Assembly (NCBI RefSeq): GCF_045037415.1
Contig: NZ_CP173440.1
Source of the DNA: Escherichia coli
GTDB taxonomy: Bacteria; Pseudomonadota; Gammaproteobacteria; Enterobacterales; Enterobacteriaceae
Direction: 5' to 3' (one strand)
Length of the DNA stretch: 64,000 nt
The position numbers are program-made. This document shows positions 18,001 to 30,000 of the stretch, piece by piece; the first letter of the stretch is position 1, and each line of letters opens with the position of its first letter.

Positions 18001-21000
18001 TGAATCTTTTACAACCAAATTTTCTTGTTATTTTACATCTGTGACACGATAGTGTTTTCTCTTCAATTTTTAGACGGCTTTTTAATTCATGGATGCCCTC
18101 CCTCCTGGAGAGTAAGCATTGTAGAATGATTTGTTCTTTTTTTGTTAGTTGTGGGTAATGATTTCCAATCCGGCTAACATTTTTCTTTAAGTATGCATAA
18201 TATAGCTCTTCAATGTTTTTTTTAAATTTCCTTGCATGTTGACATAGATGTCATAATCACACCCTTTAGGATAAAACTTCTCCCCCCCCCCCGAAATGTC
18301 AAGCCACATCCATTGACTTATCATATTTAATGTTTTCCTTAACATTTTATAACCATCCCATTTCCCTGAATAAAAAATCCGGCTATCAACCAATACTCTT
18401 ATATTTCTTTTCTGCTTAATAACTATTGGTTTATCCATCGAGCCTTCATACGTAATATAAACCAGAGGTAGTCCAGTTAACTGCTTTAGGCCGAAATAAA
18501 AATAATAATCATCAGTTAACACTAATGTAACATCCTTATTGCACATAAAGTAAATATATTTTTCCATTGAAACACCAGTTTCATTATCTAATGATGCCTC
18601 CAGTAATTTATCTATTCAATTATAAATGTATTTCTTTTTAAAGCAACATAATACCATTTTACATGAAACATAATGTTTACAGTTTCATGATGAATTATTA
18701 TTCATTTTATGTGCTTAATAAGGTTTGTGTTTGTGTTTGCATGGTAGTAACAAATTGATTTTACTTTGAAAAAATAAATAAAGCATTTCCCTGTGTGATT
18801 AAGAATTCATAAAAAAGAATTGGGTATTTGTTTATTTAGGAATTATTTTAATAATACCCTCTTTTGAAATAATTATCACGATAATTTTATTAAAAACAAC
18901 AATACCCTTGGGGATTAGATTAATCTTACCCACCAATAGTGGACACAGGACTAAGTGAGTAAACTCTCAACCAGAGGTGACTCATGACAAAACCAGTATC
19001 AATCAGCAAGAAGCCCCGTAAACAACATACGCCTGAATTTCGTAACGAAGCCCTGAAACTCGCTGAACGCATCGGTGTGGCCGCCGCAGCCCGTGAACTC
19101 AACCTGTACGAATCTCAGCTTTATGCCTGGCGCAGTAAACAGCAGCAACAAATGAGTTCGTCAGAGCGCGAAAGCGAACTGGCCGCTGAAAATGTCCGCC
19201 TTAAACGACAACTGGCGGAGCAGGCTGAGGAACTGGCCATCCTCCAAAAGGCCGCGACATACTTCGCGAAGCGCCTGAATTTCAGTATCTTTAAGCTTTC
19301 CCCCGCTCGTCATTCCGTAACCCGGGCGAGCAGATTGACGGCAGCTTCCGGCTGAATGATGACTTTTACCTGTTGGAAGCTAAGTGGCATCAGAACAGAA
19401 CGCCAGCGGCAGATTTGCACGTATTCGAAGGAAAACTCAGCACCAAGGCAAAGTGGGCCCGGGGCGTGTTCATCAGATGGATGGGGTTTACTGATGAAGG
19501 TCTGACGGCCTTCGGGAAAGGAAAACGGGTGATCTGTGTCAGCGGTTATGATCTTTACCATTCACTCAGTCATGGTATCGCTCTGCCCGACCTTCTGGAC
19601 GCAAAACTCCGACACGCAGCGGAAACAGGGGAACCTTATGCCCAGTTCGACAGGCTTTACACTCTTAAGGGCATAATAAGCGGCACGCCGAAATAACCTG
19701 CATGGTAATTCAAGAAATTACCCTGCAGAGAGCGGCTTTCTTCACCCAGTCTTCCAGCACCAGACCCGGCACCCGCTCAAACTCTCTCACATTGTTCGTC
19801 ACTAGGACGGCGCCGGCCGCGATAGCGTGCCCAGCAATGGCCGTGTCGTTCGGGCCGATCGGCGTCCCGGCGAGGCGCAGCGCCACCCGGATGTCCGTCG
19901 TGGCGTCCACCGCGGCCCGGTCCCAGGGCAGGATGGCATCGAGGCGCGCGCAGAACGCGTCGACCAGCTGAATATGGCGCGGCGAGGCCTTCGGGCCGGT
20001 GGCGCCGAAGCGCATCTCGGCATACGTCACGGCCGAGACCACGATGCGATCACCGCGCAGCACCGCCTGTTCCAGGCGCTTCAGCACCGCTGCCGGCTGC
20101 TCGCGCATGATGAACGAGCAGATGTTAGTGTCGAGCATCCAGGTTTTCTTCATGGCTCAAAGCGTCCTTCATCGCTGACCACATCCTCACGCTCCGCCAT
20201 AAAGTCCGGAGCGGCCCTGTCCAGCTGCGCGAACGAGCCCCAGGTCGGCCGGACGGGACGCAGAATGATGCTGTCCCCTTCCCGGACGATCTCCAGCTCG
20301 CTGACGCCGTCAAAATCCAGGTCCCGGGGCAGACGGATGGCGCGGTTATTGCCGTTTTTAAATATCGAAACTGTGCGCATGGATGTTCCTCCAACTGATC
20401 ATGCATGATGTGTGAGTGCATATGTGCAGTATATGCCTGCCAGATTGGTTTGTATAGGTGTCGCATATGCAGATGACTGGCATATGCGTATGTCTGCCCT
20501 ATGCAGATGCGCGGAATATGGATATGCTGTGCATATCCTGTTTTCTCATTTCTCCACCGCAGATCCGAAAAATACCACAGCTGGAGGTGGCTGTTTGAAC
20601 CTGCGATTCAGTGAGATAACAGGAACTGACGGCCGGTCAGCGGGTAAACGCCTTCAGAAAAAGTCACCCTGGGCGAGAAAATGGAAGTGGGGAAAATGGC
20701 ATGAAGGAATTAAATAACCAATTAAAATCAGATAAATAGTGGGTTTTCGTGCCTTGAATCGGGCGAAATTTAATGTTTTCGGAAGTGAGAGGTTGCCTGA
20801 TAATGGCATCAGGCAGCTGCCGACCGGTGATATGGTGATTTACAATAATGCCGGACAGTACCTGATTTGCGCGATCTATTAAACCTGGCACCGGGCTGAC
20901 AGTCTTTAATTGAGCGACCTGCAGGCCTCTATATAGTTTTATCCCTCGTCCGGCGTCATACCGGAGCCACTGATACAGGATGTCCTGATGCACTTTTATG

Positions 21001-27000: not shown

Positions 27001-30000
27001 GTCGCTCTCCAGCGGACGCAAAAGATGCTCGGCATACATCTGATCCACGACCGGGCGCAGCGCTGCCCGGAACCGGTCAAACTCTTCCATCCAGTTTTCG
27101 CCGGCCAGGCGGAAGATCCCCTTCAGGTAGTGGTCATCCACCGGACGGTCATGCTCCACCTGCTAGGCCAGCAGGTCACGGGTGATGTCGAGCAGCGTGC
27201 CCAGGGCCGGCAGGGTTGCCAGCCTGTTATGCCCGCGCAGGAAGGCCTCCCTGGTATGAACCAGCATAAAGCGCAGCTCGTCGCGGGAGAGCACTGACGT
27301 GCCGAAGGTCTGGCCGAGAATGATATGCCGGTACACAAAGCGTTATTGTCGTCTCAGCACAATTCACACGCGTCGTGTACGCTAAGCCTTCATTTTGCTC
27401 AGCACAGGACCGCGATCTTATGTTGGTGACTATGACAGACAAAGAACTCAGTCGGATCAACATCATTCAGTCAGTTATTGAAAAGCGCATGCGTCGTCGC
27501 GATGCTGCTCATCAGCTTGCTTTGACCGAATGTCAGACACAGCGTTTGATTGATGATCAGCACTACAGTGAGTCCATAAAACGGTCGTTTTATGGAGACT
27601 GACAATTAATTGCGAAACCATTAACTAGGTAATGGAAGTTGAGTGGTGTATTTTATTTCCTCCATGGAAAAACTGGATGTTACATCACTCAATCCGCTTA
27701 CTGAGCTGACCAGCTTTTTGTAAAAACTATCGTAACCCTTCATATCTGAAACCACTACCTGAAGAAGATAATCATATTCTCCCGTGGTACGGAAAAAAGT
27801 CATCACTTCTGGCATACTATTGACCTGCGAAACGAAATGTTTATACCAGTCATGGCTGTGGTTTTGTGTTTTTATCATCACGAAGGCTGTAAGCGACAAG
27901 TTAAGCTTATCCTTACTCAACAGAGCAACCCGACCAGTGATGATCCCCTCATCTTCAAGACGTTTTATGCGCTTCCAGCAAGGATTCGGCGTTAAATCGA
28001 CAGCCGCTGCCAGGTCCTGTAGACACAGTGTACAGTCATGTTGTAACAGCCTGAGCAGCTCCTTATCTTTCTTATCCAGCATAACCGCCCCTTCTGATGG
28101 AGAATATTTTTCTCTAAAAGTATAAAATAAAAGTGAAGAAAACAATATTTTTCTCCCGTTAAAAAGTTAAATTAATTTCTTTTACTGGGAGTATCTTATG
28201 CGCAGAGTGACGATATTGGTATTATTCCTGCTGGTTTCACTGACCTGGGGGACCACATGGCTGGCTATGCGGATAGCCGCTGAAACTATCCCTCCGGTGT
28301 TTGCAACCGGGATGAGGTTTATGTTTGCAGCTCCATTCTTAATCGGCATTGCATGGTTAAGAAAAACACCGCTTTTATTTCCACGCGGACAACGCTTGTT
28401 CCAGCTTGTAATTTGTATTTTTTATTTTGCCATTCCTTTCTCATTAATGATTTATGGTGAAACATATGTCAGCTCCGGGCTTGCCTCCATTATATTTTCA
28501 AACATGCCTGTGGCTGTTTTGATTGCATCAGTTTTGTTTTTGAATGAAAAAACAAACTCAATGCAGATTGCGGGTTTAACTATCGCAATAGTGGCACTGG
28601 CGGGCATTCTTCTCGAAGAAACGAAAACAAGCACAGAGACCCAATGGCAGGGAATCATTGCGCTTGTTTCAGCCGTAATCATCCATGCCATAATATATAC
28701 TCAATGCAAGAAAAGAAGCTGTGCTGTCTCTGTTATAACGTTTAATGCGCTCCCGTGCTTTCTGGCAGGATTGTTACTTTCTGCGGCAGGATGGTTCTTC
28801 GAAAGACCACTGGTGTCAGCCTTCTCAGCACACTCAATATTAGCTACCCTGTATCTCGGTGCTTTTGCCGGGGTTTTTGGGATATTGTGCTACTTTGCAC
28901 TTCAGCAAAAGGCCAGTGCCTTTCAGGCTTCACTTGTATTCCTTATTTTTCCTCTGATTGCGGTAAGCCTGGAAAGCTATGTATATGGATATGCAATTTC
29001 AACTCAATCAATGCTCTTTATTATACCGTTAGTTGCCGGGATATTTCTTACTCTTTTCTCACGGCGAGTGTCTGCAACCAACAAACATCGGGATTGCTCA
29101 CCACAAACAAATAATGGTATTCATGAGCATACTGAGACTTCCTGAGGATTTAAAGAAAAGGCTTTCGTTTTCAGTTAATGTGGGTCGGTTGAAATGAGGG
29201 TTAGCTGCCGATACCAGTGAGGGATAGAAAGGGATCACCTACCTATCCCTTCACCCTTGTATCTAACAGTTTGTGGTGATTAGCTACCACCACTGAAGCT
29301 GAGTGAGCCGCCCCCTTCACTTAAGGTCAGAAAAGCCAGCACCGCTGAACCTTGATTTGCAGCATATGGCCCTCCGCTTCACCTTTCACGCCAGCACATC
29401 AGGTTGAACGGTTACCGGGAGCTCGACTCCGTATGTACAAGGCGAACAGGCGTGACGGTTTATGTGAGAGGAGTTTGACCATGTTTCCAGTCGGCATTGA
29501 CGTAAGTAAAAACACCCTTGATCTTTGCATACTGTATGACGGTATCAAAGGACGCATAAAAACCCGTAACATCCAAAATAACAGACATTCAGTTGAAAAT
29601 ATTCTTCGCTGGCTCAGGCTCCAGCACTGCGGTCCTGAGGATGTTCATGTTGTGATGGAAGCTACCGGTGTTTATCACGAACGGCTGGCCACTGAGTTAC
29701 ATGATGCCGGTTTCCGGGTTTCTCTGGCCAACCCTCACCGCAGTCGGGAGTTTGCACGCGGCATGGGAATAATGACAAAGACGGATAAGGTGGATGCGTA
29801 TATGCTTGCCTGTTACGCATTCCTTAAGAAGCCACACCACTGGGAGCCGCCGTCCCCCGAAATCAGATATCTCGCTGCACTCCTGCGACGGCGTGATGTT
29901 CTGCTGGGTGATGCCCTGCGTGAGGAGAACAGGCTGGAAAAATACCTGTCGACAGACACACCTGCAGATATTATCAGTTCCTGCAGGCGTATGGCGCAGC

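What the first reader, a model, noticed from the sequence alone, without database searches (positions are those of the whole stretch)
20400..27620. Compact accessory island of defence-like genes inserted between vapBC and an IS remnant
Within about 7 kb lie four modules on alternating strands with heterogeneous GC content: DUF3800 plus HTH, a small RBS-bearing membrane ORF, the small-ORF plus TIR-like cassette, and the KAP NTPase operon. The island is bordered by an IS3 remnant and vapBC on one side and an IS1202-like fragment on the other. This resembles a defence island rather than the iron, capsule or metal-resistance cargo in the rest of the window.
Basis: inference. Interest (0 to 1): 0.55.

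Follow-up and report, generated by a model that had tools for sequence, protein, structure and literature searches.

The report
F-plasmid-derived defence cluster on Klebsiella virulence plasmid
The 7-kb block is a real cluster of phage-defence-type genes, but it is a conserved, partly decayed piece of F-plasmid-like DNA (the classic pif T7-exclusion genes and neighbours) that nearly all pLVPK-type Klebsiella virulence plasmids carry, not a fresh insertion.

Summary
The window is a pLVPK/KpVP-1-type Klebsiella pneumoniae virulence plasmid. The block is 100% identical in pLVPK. About as many PLSDB plasmids carry it as carry the linked aerobactin locus (about 590 versus 607).

- **KAP NTPase operon.** This is the F-plasmid pif operon. 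pifA is 91% identical in protein to the F "phage T7 exclusion protein". The upstream ORF is a dead pifC: it is 5'-truncated, has lost its promoter and carries an in-frame stop. In this window pifA also has a private +1 frameshift.
- **Small ORF plus TIR cassette.** This is F yuaX-yuaY, which matches the PADLOC candidate PDC-S35. The gene pair is conserved as far as Pseudomonas and Methylobacterium.
- **Synteny with F.** Window 22852-27335 is colinear with F 41090-45573 at 86% DNA identity. F also keeps a DUF3800 remnant on the same side.
- **DUF3800.** The protein models as an RNase H-fold enzyme with invariant acidic residues. It is followed by a "korC"-labelled HTH gene and a convergent small membrane ORF. 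That pair also follows DUF4238 and an unrelated gene in other plasmids and ICEs.

Verdict: a known kind of plasmid defence hotspot, inherited as one block. Only PifA has a tested function. Interest is modest.

The parts
18984..19355 (+). IS3-family transposase orfA fragment. It forms the left edge of the relic region.
   Evidence: NCBIfam transpos_IS3 E 5.4e-12, matching model positions 1-110 of 369. PHROG transposase E 7e-14.
19373..19696 (+). C-terminal fragment (107 aa) of a 'restriction endonuclease' family gene, cut off by the IS3 remnant.
   Evidence: tblastn gives 56% identity over 90% of the ORF to genes annotated 'restriction endonuclease' in pKPC-LK30-type plasmids. No PADLOC or NCBIfam model matches.
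19710..20380 (-). vapC (19710-20153) and vapB (20150-20380), a type II toxin-antitoxin pair.
   Evidence: ORFs. RefSeq annotation of 100%-identical records gives WP_004213072 and WP_004213073. The vapB 5' region is 72% identical to the vapB region of IncF plasmid pU302L, which is linked to a DUF3800 gene there.
20988..22121 (+). DUF3800 protein (377 aa), a predicted RNase H-fold nuclease. It is a candidate single-gene defence effector.
22137..22430 (+). 97-aa HTH protein of the family that NCBI labels 'korC'.
   Evidence: 182 homologues, many named korC or YiaG-like regulator by their sources. PHROG 8351 E 2e-10. The conserved motif is LTDxxLAxRLxVDxRTIRKWKSG...TTWCCLCWLAGLG. The same gene follows DUF4238 or an unrelated 340-aa gene elsewhere.
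22420..22626 (-). 68-aa small membrane protein gene. It is convergent with the korC-like gene and overlaps it by 11 nt.
   Evidence: AAGGAG lies 7 nt upstream of the ATG. Homologous 65-67-aa ORFs sit in the same convergent, overlapping position in pV404, a Pectobacterium ICE, a Morganella chromosome and Enterobacter plasmids. They are 38-45% identical, with a conserved TM segment, a DxLPxI motif and a WRYxRRxIxxRI tail.
22978..23268 (+). yuaX homologue (96 aa), the small partner of the TIR protein.
   Evidence: 80% identical to the F-like plasmid protein that is UniProt YUAX_ECOLI. The partners of distant YuaY homologues carry Pfam PF27363 'YuaX'. dN/dS is 0.09.
23258..24157 (+). yuaY homologue (299 aa). 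It has an N-terminal helical domain and a C-terminal Cap12/PycTIR-type TIR domain. It matches the PADLOC candidate PDC-S35.
   Evidence: PF10137 E 1.1e-36. PADLOC PDC-S35 E 7.6e-66. 87% identical to F YuaY. The TIR-STING (Cap12) alignment includes the NVxxExG glutamate, and E235 is invariant in 25 homologues. Foldseek matches TIR-STING 9lmq at E 5e-5.
24206..26432 (-). pifA, a KAP P-loop NTPase and the F-plasmid phage T7 exclusion protein. In this window it is disrupted by a +1 frameshift at 24724/24725.
   Evidence: PADLOC PifA scores 798 bits for the 624-aa part and 152 bits for the 175-aa part. The intact 741-aa form in pLVPK-type records is 91.4% identical to the E. coli 'phage T7 exclusion protein'. 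The extra T is shown. No PLSDB record carries it; the best match is 250 of 251 bases.
26434..27342 (-). pifC pseudogene. About the first 60 codons and the pif promoter/operator region are missing, and there is an in-frame TAG at 27163-27165 (W120 in F PifC).
   Evidence: tblastn of F-like PifC (362 aa) aligns residues 61-362 at 85% identity, with a stop at position 120. The sequence is shown. dN/dS is 0.23-0.32, higher than in the neighbouring genes.
27375..27602 (+). Short N-terminal fragment of an ISNCY (IS1202-group) transposase. It marks where the F-type homology is cut off.
   Evidence: NCBIfam transpos_ISNCY_2 E 1.5e-3, matching model positions 2-32 of 368. PHROG transposase E 2e-4. The support is weak. 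Homology to F ends at 27335.

Best explanation
Window 19.4-27.6 kb is a relic of the accessory region that lies between the RepFIB and RepFIA/ccd modules of F-type plasmids. It was inherited as one block by the ancestor of the pLVPK/KpVP-1 virulence plasmid and has since been trimmed by IS elements at both ends. It carries three independent abortive-infection-type modules.

1. **pifA.** This KAP P-loop NTPase of F senses T7 gp1.2 and capsid gp10 and kills the infected cell through a membrane lesion. Here its repressor gene pifC is a pseudogene and the pif promoter is gone. In this particular copy pifA is also frameshifted, so the module is probably silent or dead in this window.
2. **yuaX-yuaY.** This is a translationally coupled pair. 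YuaY is an N-terminal helical sensor domain fused to a Cap12/PycTIR-type TIR domain that keeps its catalytic glutamate. I infer that it hydrolyses NAD+ when triggered, and that the small acidic YuaX is its sensor or restraining partner.
3. **DUF3800.** This is an RNase H-fold enzyme with an intact acidic centre. I infer that it is a nuclease effector that works as a single gene.

A 'korC'-type HTH regulator and a convergent small membrane peptide follow the DUF3800 gene. They form a portable two-gene unit that is also found behind other cargo genes.

Shown: gene identities, synteny with F, conservation across the plasmid lineage, the lesions, the folds and the conserved residues. Inferred: anti-phage activity of modules 2 and 3, and their mechanisms.
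For: **Identity and ancestry**
- PifA scores 798 bits in PADLOC and is 91.4% identical to the F-type T7 exclusion protein.
- YuaX and YuaY are the F proteins YUAX_ECOLI and YUAY_ECOLI.
- Window 22852-27335 equals F 41090-45573 at 85.9% identity, with the same order and strands.
- A DUF3800 remnant sits at the colinear position in F and in an F-like plasmid.
- pU302L has vapCB-HEPN-x-DUF3800-x-ccdAB-resD.

**Conservation in the lineage**
- pLVPK is identical, and the pifA segment is also present in pK2044.
- The block's genes occur in 590-591 records and iuc in 607.

**Lesions**
- The pifC truncation and stop are shown. The pifA frameshift is shown.

**Defence character**
- The PifA literature is PMC8594841 and PMC12632615.
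- The YuaX-YuaY pair, with overlapping stop and start codons, is conserved at about 50% identity in a Pseudomonas prophage, a Methylobacterium island and a Caudoviricetes contig.
- The TIR fold and invariant E235 are shown.
- The DUF3800 RNase H fold and invariant D/E residues are shown.
- Distant DUF3800 homologues sit beside island integrases, a type I-F CRISPR locus or a GIY-YIG gene.
- Neighbouring cargo in related plasmids includes a HEPN gene (pEK499_p136), DUF4238 and PDC-S35 fragments.

**Purifying selection**
- All intact genes have dN/dS of 0.07-0.13.
Against: - Only PifA has ever been tested. Its known range is very narrow (T7 and one relative among the BASEL phages), and the authors question whether defence is its primary role (PMC8594841).
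- PDC-S35 is only a computational candidate, and no paper mentioning it was found.
- DUF3800, DUF4238, the korC-like gene and the 340-aa gene have no PADLOC model.
- No promoter above chance was found for pifA after the loss of the pif promoter.
- KpVP-1 plasmids are nearly clonal, so intact ORFs across about 590 records do not show selection in Klebsiella.
- dS differs about threefold between pifCA (about 0.36) and yuaXY (about 1.0-1.5). The 'single block' therefore has a mosaic history further back in time.
Confidence: 0.72

Rival explanations
1. A defence island was assembled in place by several independent insertions into a pLVPK-type backbone, so it should vary between virulence plasmids.
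For: GC content is uneven, between 0.37 and 0.64. IS fragments lie at both ends. dS differs between pifCA and yuaXY, which shows module-level exchange at some time in the past.
Against: The block is identical in pLVPK and is present in about 97% as many records as iuc. 4.5 kb of it is colinear with F, and a DUF3800 remnant sits at the matching place in F. vapBC-DUF3800 linkage also occurs in pU302L. There are no flanking direct or inverted repeats. The same GC pattern exists inside the F pif operon itself.
Confidence: 0.08
2. The genes serve the plasmid rather than defending against phage. They would act in post-segregational killing, in exclusion of or competition with other plasmids, or in control of the adjacent replication/partition region. 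Phage exclusion by PifA would then be a side effect.
For: The block sits among plasmid maintenance genes in every relative: vapBC, ccdAB, resD, ParA and the Rep genes. The BASEL authors suggest that PifA may not have evolved as an immunity system (PMC8594841). The HTH gene carries the name of a plasmid kil/kor regulator. The small membrane peptide convergent with an HTH gene resembles a toxin/regulator pair.
Against: YuaX-YuaY and the DUF3800 homologues also occur in prophages and chromosomal islands that have no plasmid functions. The TIR and RNase H effector types, and the PADLOC matches, are typical of anti-phage systems.
Confidence: 0.15
3. The whole block is functionally inert baggage. 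It would be a decaying fragment of an old cointegrate, kept only because KpVP-1 plasmids are recent and clonal.
For: pifC is truncated and carries a stop. The pif promoter is lost. pifA is frameshifted in this window. A restriction-endonuclease fragment and two IS fragments flank the block. Other records have an IS5 insertion within the block (H1) or in or beside pifA (H51).
Against: DUF3800, the korC-like gene, the TM ORF, yuaX, yuaY and (in pLVPK) pifA are all full-length, with low dN/dS against their relatives. Their catalytic residues are conserved. The frameshift is private to this sequence.
Confidence: 0.2

Closest known systems
pif region of E. coli plasmid F (NC_002483: yuaX 41216-41506, yuaY 41496-42395, pifA 42445-44670, pifC 44672-45760)
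   Same: The gene order and orientation are the same, and DNA identity is 85.9% over 4.5 kb. PifA is 91% identical, YuaY 87%, YuaX 80% and the PifC remnant 84-85%. A DUF3800 remnant lies on the same flank.
   Different: Here pifC lacks about 60 N-terminal codons and its promoter/operator, and it has a TAG at codon 120. ccdAB-resD-repE are replaced by an ISNCY fragment. DUF3800 is intact here but only a remnant in F. The window's pifA carries a +1 frameshift. The host is a Klebsiella IncFIB(K)/IncHI1B virulence plasmid.
PADLOC candidate system PDC-S35 (a single-gene phage defence candidate)
   Same: YuaY matches five PDC-S35 models, the best at E 7.6e-66.
   Different: PADLOC models only the TIR protein. 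Here, and in distant relatives, it is always preceded by an overlapping YuaX-family gene, which suggests a two-gene unit. No experimental report was found.
Cap12 (TIR-STING) of CBASS and PycTIR of Pycsar
   Same: The TIR subfamily is the same (PF10137, E 1e-36). The NVxxExG glutamate is conserved. The predicted fold matches TIR-STING.
   Different: There is no cyclase gene nearby and no STING or other nucleotide-sensor domain. The N-terminal 140 residues form an all-helical domain with no structural match. The NCBIfam Cap12 score is 42.5 against a cutoff of 450.
DUF3800 proteins of type VII retrons and of Cas12a2 / type VI-F CRISPR loci
   Same: The Pfam family and RNase H-like fold are the same, with an N-terminal DE motif (PMC7736814, PMC10910872, PMC12669027).
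   Different: No reverse transcriptase, msr/msd, CRISPR array or cas gene is adjacent. No Rfam DUF3800-associated RNA motif was found in 19-29 kb. The protein is stand-alone or followed by a korC-like HTH gene.
Variable cargo region upstream of resD/ccdAB in IncF-family plasmids and related ICEs (for example pU302L, pV404 and Enterobacter plasmids)
   Same: The neighbourhood holds the same kinds of cargo: vapBC, a HEPN gene (pEK499_p136) with its partner, DUF3800 or DUF4238, the korC-like gene, the small TM ORF and PDC-S35 fragments.
   Different: The combinations of cargo differ from plasmid to plasmid. The Klebsiella virulence plasmid has lost the resD/ccd anchor.

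Membership tests
Pif abortive-infection system of plasmid F | A PifA orthologue: a KAP-family P-loop NTPase of about 740 aa | tested here: met
   PADLOC PifA scores 798 plus 152 bits across the two ORF pieces. Pfam KAP_NTPase E 4.7e-43. 91.4% identity to the F-type 'phage T7 exclusion protein'.
Pif abortive-infection system of plasmid F | An intact pifA reading frame | tested here: not met
   The window has one extra T at 24724/24725, which splits the gene into 624-aa and 175-aa ORFs. pLVPK and every PLSDB record listed lack the extra base, so the lineage meets this feature but this copy does not, unless the extra base is a sequencing error.
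Pif abortive-infection system of plasmid F | The pifC repressor gene and pif promoter/operator upstream of pifA | tested here: not met
   Only codons 61-362 remain, with a TAG at codon 120. Homology to F stops at 27335 and is followed by an ISNCY fragment.
Pif abortive-infection system of plasmid F | Exclusion of T7 triggered by gp1.2 and gp10, with membrane permeabilisation | not testable with these tools
   This phenotype is known for F PifA (PMC8594841, and Schmitt et al. 1991 as cited in PMC12632615). It needs phage assays with the Klebsiella allele.
PADLOC PDC-S35 | A match to the PDC-S35 profile HMMs | tested here: met
   Five models match, with E-values from 7.6e-66 to 4.5e-42.
PADLOC PDC-S35 | Demonstrated anti-phage activity | not testable with these tools
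   No paper in the library mentions PDC-S35. The E. coli TIR survey (PMC11350192) used chromosomal DNA only, and I could not link any of its systems to YuaY.
CBASS Cap12 / Pycsar PycTIR effectors | A TIR domain of the PF10137 subfamily with the catalytic glutamate | tested here: met
   PF10137 E 1.1e-36. The alignment to TIR-STING chains includes the glutamate of NVxxExG. E235 is invariant. That this glutamate is the catalytic residue of TIR-STING is from my own knowledge.
CBASS Cap12 / Pycsar PycTIR effectors | An adjacent cyclase (CD-NTase or PycC) and a cyclic-nucleotide-sensing domain fused to the TIR domain | tested here: not met
   No cyclase is present in 19-29 kb. The N-terminal domain is helical and has no STING or SAVED match. 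The NCBIfam Cap12 score is 42.5 against a cutoff of 450.
DUF3800 (PF12686) RNase H-like proteins | A Pfam match, an RNase H-like fold and conserved acidic motifs | tested here: met
Type VII retron / CRISPR-accessory DUF3800 | An adjacent reverse transcriptase with msr/msd, or cas genes with an array, or a DUF3800-associated RNA motif | tested here: not met
   There is no RT or cas ORF. Rfam at E<=1 finds no DUF3800-I..XI, drum or skipping-rope motif in 19000-29000.
   The block is in pLVPK and its pifA segment in pK2044, and its genes occur in 590-591 records against 607 for iuc. There are no flanking repeats.

The most novel reading that the evidence does not exclude
Two parts of the block could be undescribed systems.

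(a) The korC-like HTH gene and the convergent, overlapping 65-68-aa membrane peptide may be a portable control or toxin unit that docks behind interchangeable effector genes: DUF3800 here, DUF4238 in many plasmids and ICEs, and an unrelated 340-aa gene in Pectobacterium. That would define a modular family of defence or exclusion cassettes carried by mobile elements.

(b) YuaX-YuaY may be a true two-component TIR NADase system in which the small YuaX protein is the phage sensor or the brake. It is present on F itself, where it has been overlooked next to pifA for decades.
Probability: 0.3. Interest if true: 0.6.

Novelty: new member of a known kind. Interest (0 to 1): 0.33.

Why it matters
Hypervirulent K. 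pneumoniae is a target for phage therapy. Nearly every KpVP-1 virulence plasmid carries this cluster, so if pifA, yuaXY or DUF3800 are active they would shape which phages can be used against these strains.

The analysis also shows that the region next to pifA on plasmid F, one of the most studied plasmids, holds an uncharacterised TIR gene pair (yuaXY) and a remnant of a DUF3800 gene. The accessory region between vapBC and ccd/resD in IncF-family plasmids behaves as a cargo hotspot for defence-type genes.

Otherwise the finding is ordinary. The sequence has been public since pLVPK was deposited, and standard tools flag two of its genes.

Tried and rejected
- **Structured RNA linked to DUF3800.** This family has 11 known RNA motifs (PMC5737381). 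An Rfam scan of 19-29 kb at E<=1 gave only three sub-threshold chance hits. The 590-bp region upstream of DUF3800 is not conserved with the pV404 or pU302L homologues; homology starts 11-18 nt before the ATG. I dropped this idea.
- **Flanking repeats as insertion scars.** Only short chance matches were found.
- **PADLOC and NCBIfam matches** for DUF3800, the korC-like gene, the TM ORF, YuaX, DUF4238, the 340-aa Pectobacterium gene and the HEPN partner genes. None matched.
- **Sequence search of the PDB.** PifA and DUF3800 gave no hits.
- **Promoter for pifA after loss of the pif promoter.** Nothing above chance.
- **Literature.** Searches for PDC-S35, for yuaY (swamped by author names) and for PifA on Klebsiella virulence plasmids found nothing relevant.
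- **E. coli TIR survey (PMC11350192).** It used chromosomal genomes only, and I could not connect it to YuaY.
- **Is the korC-like gene an obligate partner of DUF3800?** Rejected. Distant DUF3800 homologues stand alone, and the korC-like gene also occurs behind other genes or alone.
- **Pfam check of YuaX.** The local Pfam copy lacks PF27363, so it gave no significant hit.

Full report
**What is there**

- A 377-aa ORF lies at 20988-22121 (+), followed by a 97-aa ORF at 22137-22430 (+).
- A 68-aa ORF lies at 22420-22626 (-). It is convergent with the 97-aa ORF, overlaps it by 11 nt, and has AAGGAG 7 nt before its ATG.
- A 96-aa ORF lies at 22978-23268 (+). It overlaps a TIR-like gene whose real start is ATG 23258, giving 299 aa. 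This start is the one annotated in identical RefSeq records and is supported by the homologue alignment.
- On the minus strand, a KAP NTPase lies at 24206-26432 with a further ORF upstream at 26434-27159.

GC content ranges from about 0.37 to 0.64 within the block.

**Where the window comes from**

The block matches hundreds of K. pneumoniae plasmids at 100% identity. The neighbours are iucBC-iutA, rmpA2, vapBC, an Lrp/DMT pair and the ter genes, so this is a pLVPK/KpVP-1-type virulence plasmid.
- pLVPK (NC_005249) contains the whole block with the same genes. pK2044 (NC_006625) contains the pifA segment tested.
- At >=99% identity, pifA is in 590 PLSDB records and DUF3800 in 591. The adjacent aerobactin locus is in 607.
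- 526 records hold >=80% of the block in one piece. Some others have an IS5 insertion, for example H1 and H51.

For this lineage the block is conserved content, not variable cargo.

**The KAP NTPase operon is pif**

- PADLOC-DB identifies the NTPase as PifA: 798 bits for the 624-aa ORF and 152 bits for the 175-aa ORF downstream of it.
- The intact 741-aa protein in pLVPK-type records is 91.4% identical to the protein annotated 'phage T7 exclusion protein' on E. coli IncF plasmids.
- The window differs from those records by a single extra T at 24724/24725, which splits the gene. No PLSDB record has this base; the best matches are 250 of 251. It is therefore either a private mutation or a sequencing error.
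- The upstream 241-aa ORF is the 3' two-thirds of pifC, 84% identical to residues 122-362. tblastn extends the match back to codon 61, through an in-frame TAG that replaces W120 at 27163-27165. Homology then stops at 27335-27342.
- The first 60 or so codons and the promoter/operator region are replaced by a short ISNCY-type transposase fragment at 27375-27602. The support for that fragment is weak (E 1.5e-3).
- No promoter-like site above chance remains upstream of pifA.

**The small ORF plus TIR cassette is yuaX-yuaY of F**

- The two proteins are 80% and 87% identical to their neighbours on the F-like plasmid. Those E. coli sequences are exactly UniProt YUAX_ECOLI and YUAY_ECOLI.
- In canonical F (NC_002483) the order is RepFIB ... 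yuaX(+) yuaY(+) pifA(-) pifC(-) ccdA ccdB resD repE.
- Window 22852-27335 aligns with F 41090-45573 at 85.9% identity in one colinear piece.
- YuaY has a PF10137 Cap12/PycTIR TIR domain (E 1.1e-36) and matches five PADLOC PDC-S35 models (best E 7.6e-66).
- It aligns to solved TIR-STING chains across the NVxxExG motif. That glutamate (E235) and an FIVHGHD motif are invariant in 25 homologues reaching down to 47% identity.
- An AF2 model (pLDDT 80.4) has a C-terminal domain that Foldseek matches to TIR-STING, SPARTA TIR and MyD88 TIR. It also has an all-helical N-terminal domain of about 140 residues with no match.
- Full-length homologues in a Pseudomonas prophage, a Methylobacterium island and a Caudoviricetes contig are each preceded by a gene whose stop overlaps their start. 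That gene carries Pfam PF27363 'YuaX'.

The pair is therefore a conserved two-gene unit on mobile elements. No cyclase or nucleotide-sensor domain is present, so it is not a CBASS or Pycsar effector.

**DUF3800 and its followers**

- The 377-aa protein matches PF12686 over the whole model.
- D6, E7, D83, D235, E290 and D293 are invariant in 24 homologues.
- This agrees with published descriptions of DUF3800 as an RNase H-fold domain. It is the associated protein of type VII retrons and an accessory of some Cas12a2 and VI-F loci (PMC7736814, PMC10910872, PMC12669027). It is also linked to 11 RNA motifs (PMC5737381), none of which is present here.
- Homologues are on more than 2,500 plasmids.
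- In pU302L (IncF) the arrangement is vapCB-HEPN-x-DUF3800-x-ccdAB-resD.
- In F and an F-like plasmid, a C-terminal DUF3800 remnant lies on the far side of yuaX. It is colinear with the window and in the same orientation.
- vapBC, DUF3800, yuaXY and pifCA are thus all pieces of one IncF accessory region, which here has lost its ccd/RepFIA end to an IS fragment.
- Between the IS3 remnant and vapC there is also a 107-aa C-terminal fragment of a 'restriction endonuclease' family gene.

**The HTH gene and the small membrane ORF**

- The 97-aa protein belongs to a family that NCBI labels korC.
- It and the convergent 65-68-aa membrane ORF recur as a pair. They follow DUF3800 here, DUF4238 in pV404, Morganella and many Enterobacter plasmids, and an unrelated 340-aa gene in a Pectobacterium ICE.
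- The small ORF keeps its reading frame and motifs at only 38-45% identity, so it is probably a real gene.
- Distant DUF3800 homologues (50-67% identity) lack this pair. They sit next to island integrases, a type I-F CRISPR locus or a GIY-YIG gene.
- I therefore treat DUF3800 as a single-gene unit, and korC-TM as a separate portable unit of unknown role.

**Selection and history**

Comparing the window with F-type copies gives these dN/dS values:

| Gene | dN/dS |
|---|---|
| pifA | 0.13 |
| yuaY | 0.07 |
| yuaX | 0.09 |
| DUF3800 (against pV404) | 0.10 |
| pifC remnant | 0.23-0.32 |

The values fit real genes under constraint and a more relaxed pifC. dS is about 0.36 for pifCA but 1.0-1.5 for yuaXY, so the colinear segment is mosaic at depth. 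No flanking repeats mark the block.

**How it most likely works**

- **PifA (established for F).** The KAP NTPase responds to T7 gp1.2 and gp10 and aborts infection through membrane damage. Its known range is narrow (PMC8594841; PMC12632615 citing Schmitt 1991). In this window the module lacks its regulator and promoter and is frameshifted, so it is probably inactive. In pLVPK the ORF is intact, but whether it is expressed is unknown.
- **YuaXY (inferred).** This would be a TIR NADase that depletes NAD+ once its helical domain or YuaX senses infection.
- **DUF3800 (inferred).** This would be a metal-dependent nuclease of the RNase H type that acts on phage or host nucleic acid.
- **Rival readings.** These are plasmid maintenance or competition, and inert relic. 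Both are weighed in the structured fields.

**Verdict**

The block is not an inserted island, though. It is a conserved F-derived relic whose central part is the long-known pif region. Novelty is limited to the uncharacterised yuaXY pair and the DUF3800/korC-TM modules.

Noticed in passing
window 24724-24725: One extra T frameshifts pifA, compared with pLVPK, pK2044 and every PLSDB record listed (best match 250 of 251 bases). It is either a private mutation or a sequencing error.
   Followed up: yes
window 19373-19696 (+): A 107-aa ORF is the C-terminal fragment of a gene family annotated 'restriction endonuclease' in pKPC-LK30-type plasmids (56% identity). It is cut off by the IS3 remnant at 18984-19355. 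This is another defence-type relic next to vapC.
   Followed up: partly
L006 4063-5677; L014-L016 about 4900-6500; L019-L022 4877-6484: The korC-like HTH gene and the convergent small membrane ORF also follow DUF4238 or an unrelated 340-aa gene in other plasmids and ICEs. In the DUF4238-bearing Morganella and Enterobacter loci (L016-L022) the array is HEPN(pEK499_p136)-259aa-530aa-DUF4238-korC-TM.
   Followed up: partly
window 22852-27335 versus F-like plasmid L002 4098-8581 (equivalent to F 41090-45573): Synonymous divergence is about threefold higher for yuaX/yuaY (dS 1.0-1.5) than for pifA/pifC (dS about 0.36), although the segment is colinear. This suggests past recombination between modules.
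   Followed up: partly
window 22848-22881: An imperfect hairpin, CCTCAGATCCGAAAAAAGGTAGTTCCGGATCTCAG, sits exactly where homology to plasmid F begins. A 16-nt copy of its left arm is at 20557-20572.
   Followed up: no
window 18187-18567 (-) and the low-GC stretch 17400-18900: The rmpA2-like ORF is only 126 aa here, while pLVPK's rmpA2 feature spans 636 bp. It is probably the usual truncated or frameshifted rmpA2. GC falls to 0.27-0.30.
   Followed up: no
window 17008-17414: Two overlapping ORFs in different frames look like the halves of a GAF-domain free methionine-(R)-sulfoxide reductase gene, named as such in record CP084985. The gene may be frameshifted.
   Followed up: no
L006 (pV404) 2932-4033: The IncI-gamma/K1 plasmid pV404 (MOB-suite typing) carries a degraded PDC-S35/TIR gene split into three annotated pieces. 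It lies directly upstream of the plasmid's DUF4238-korC-TM and DUF3800-korC modules.
   Followed up: partly
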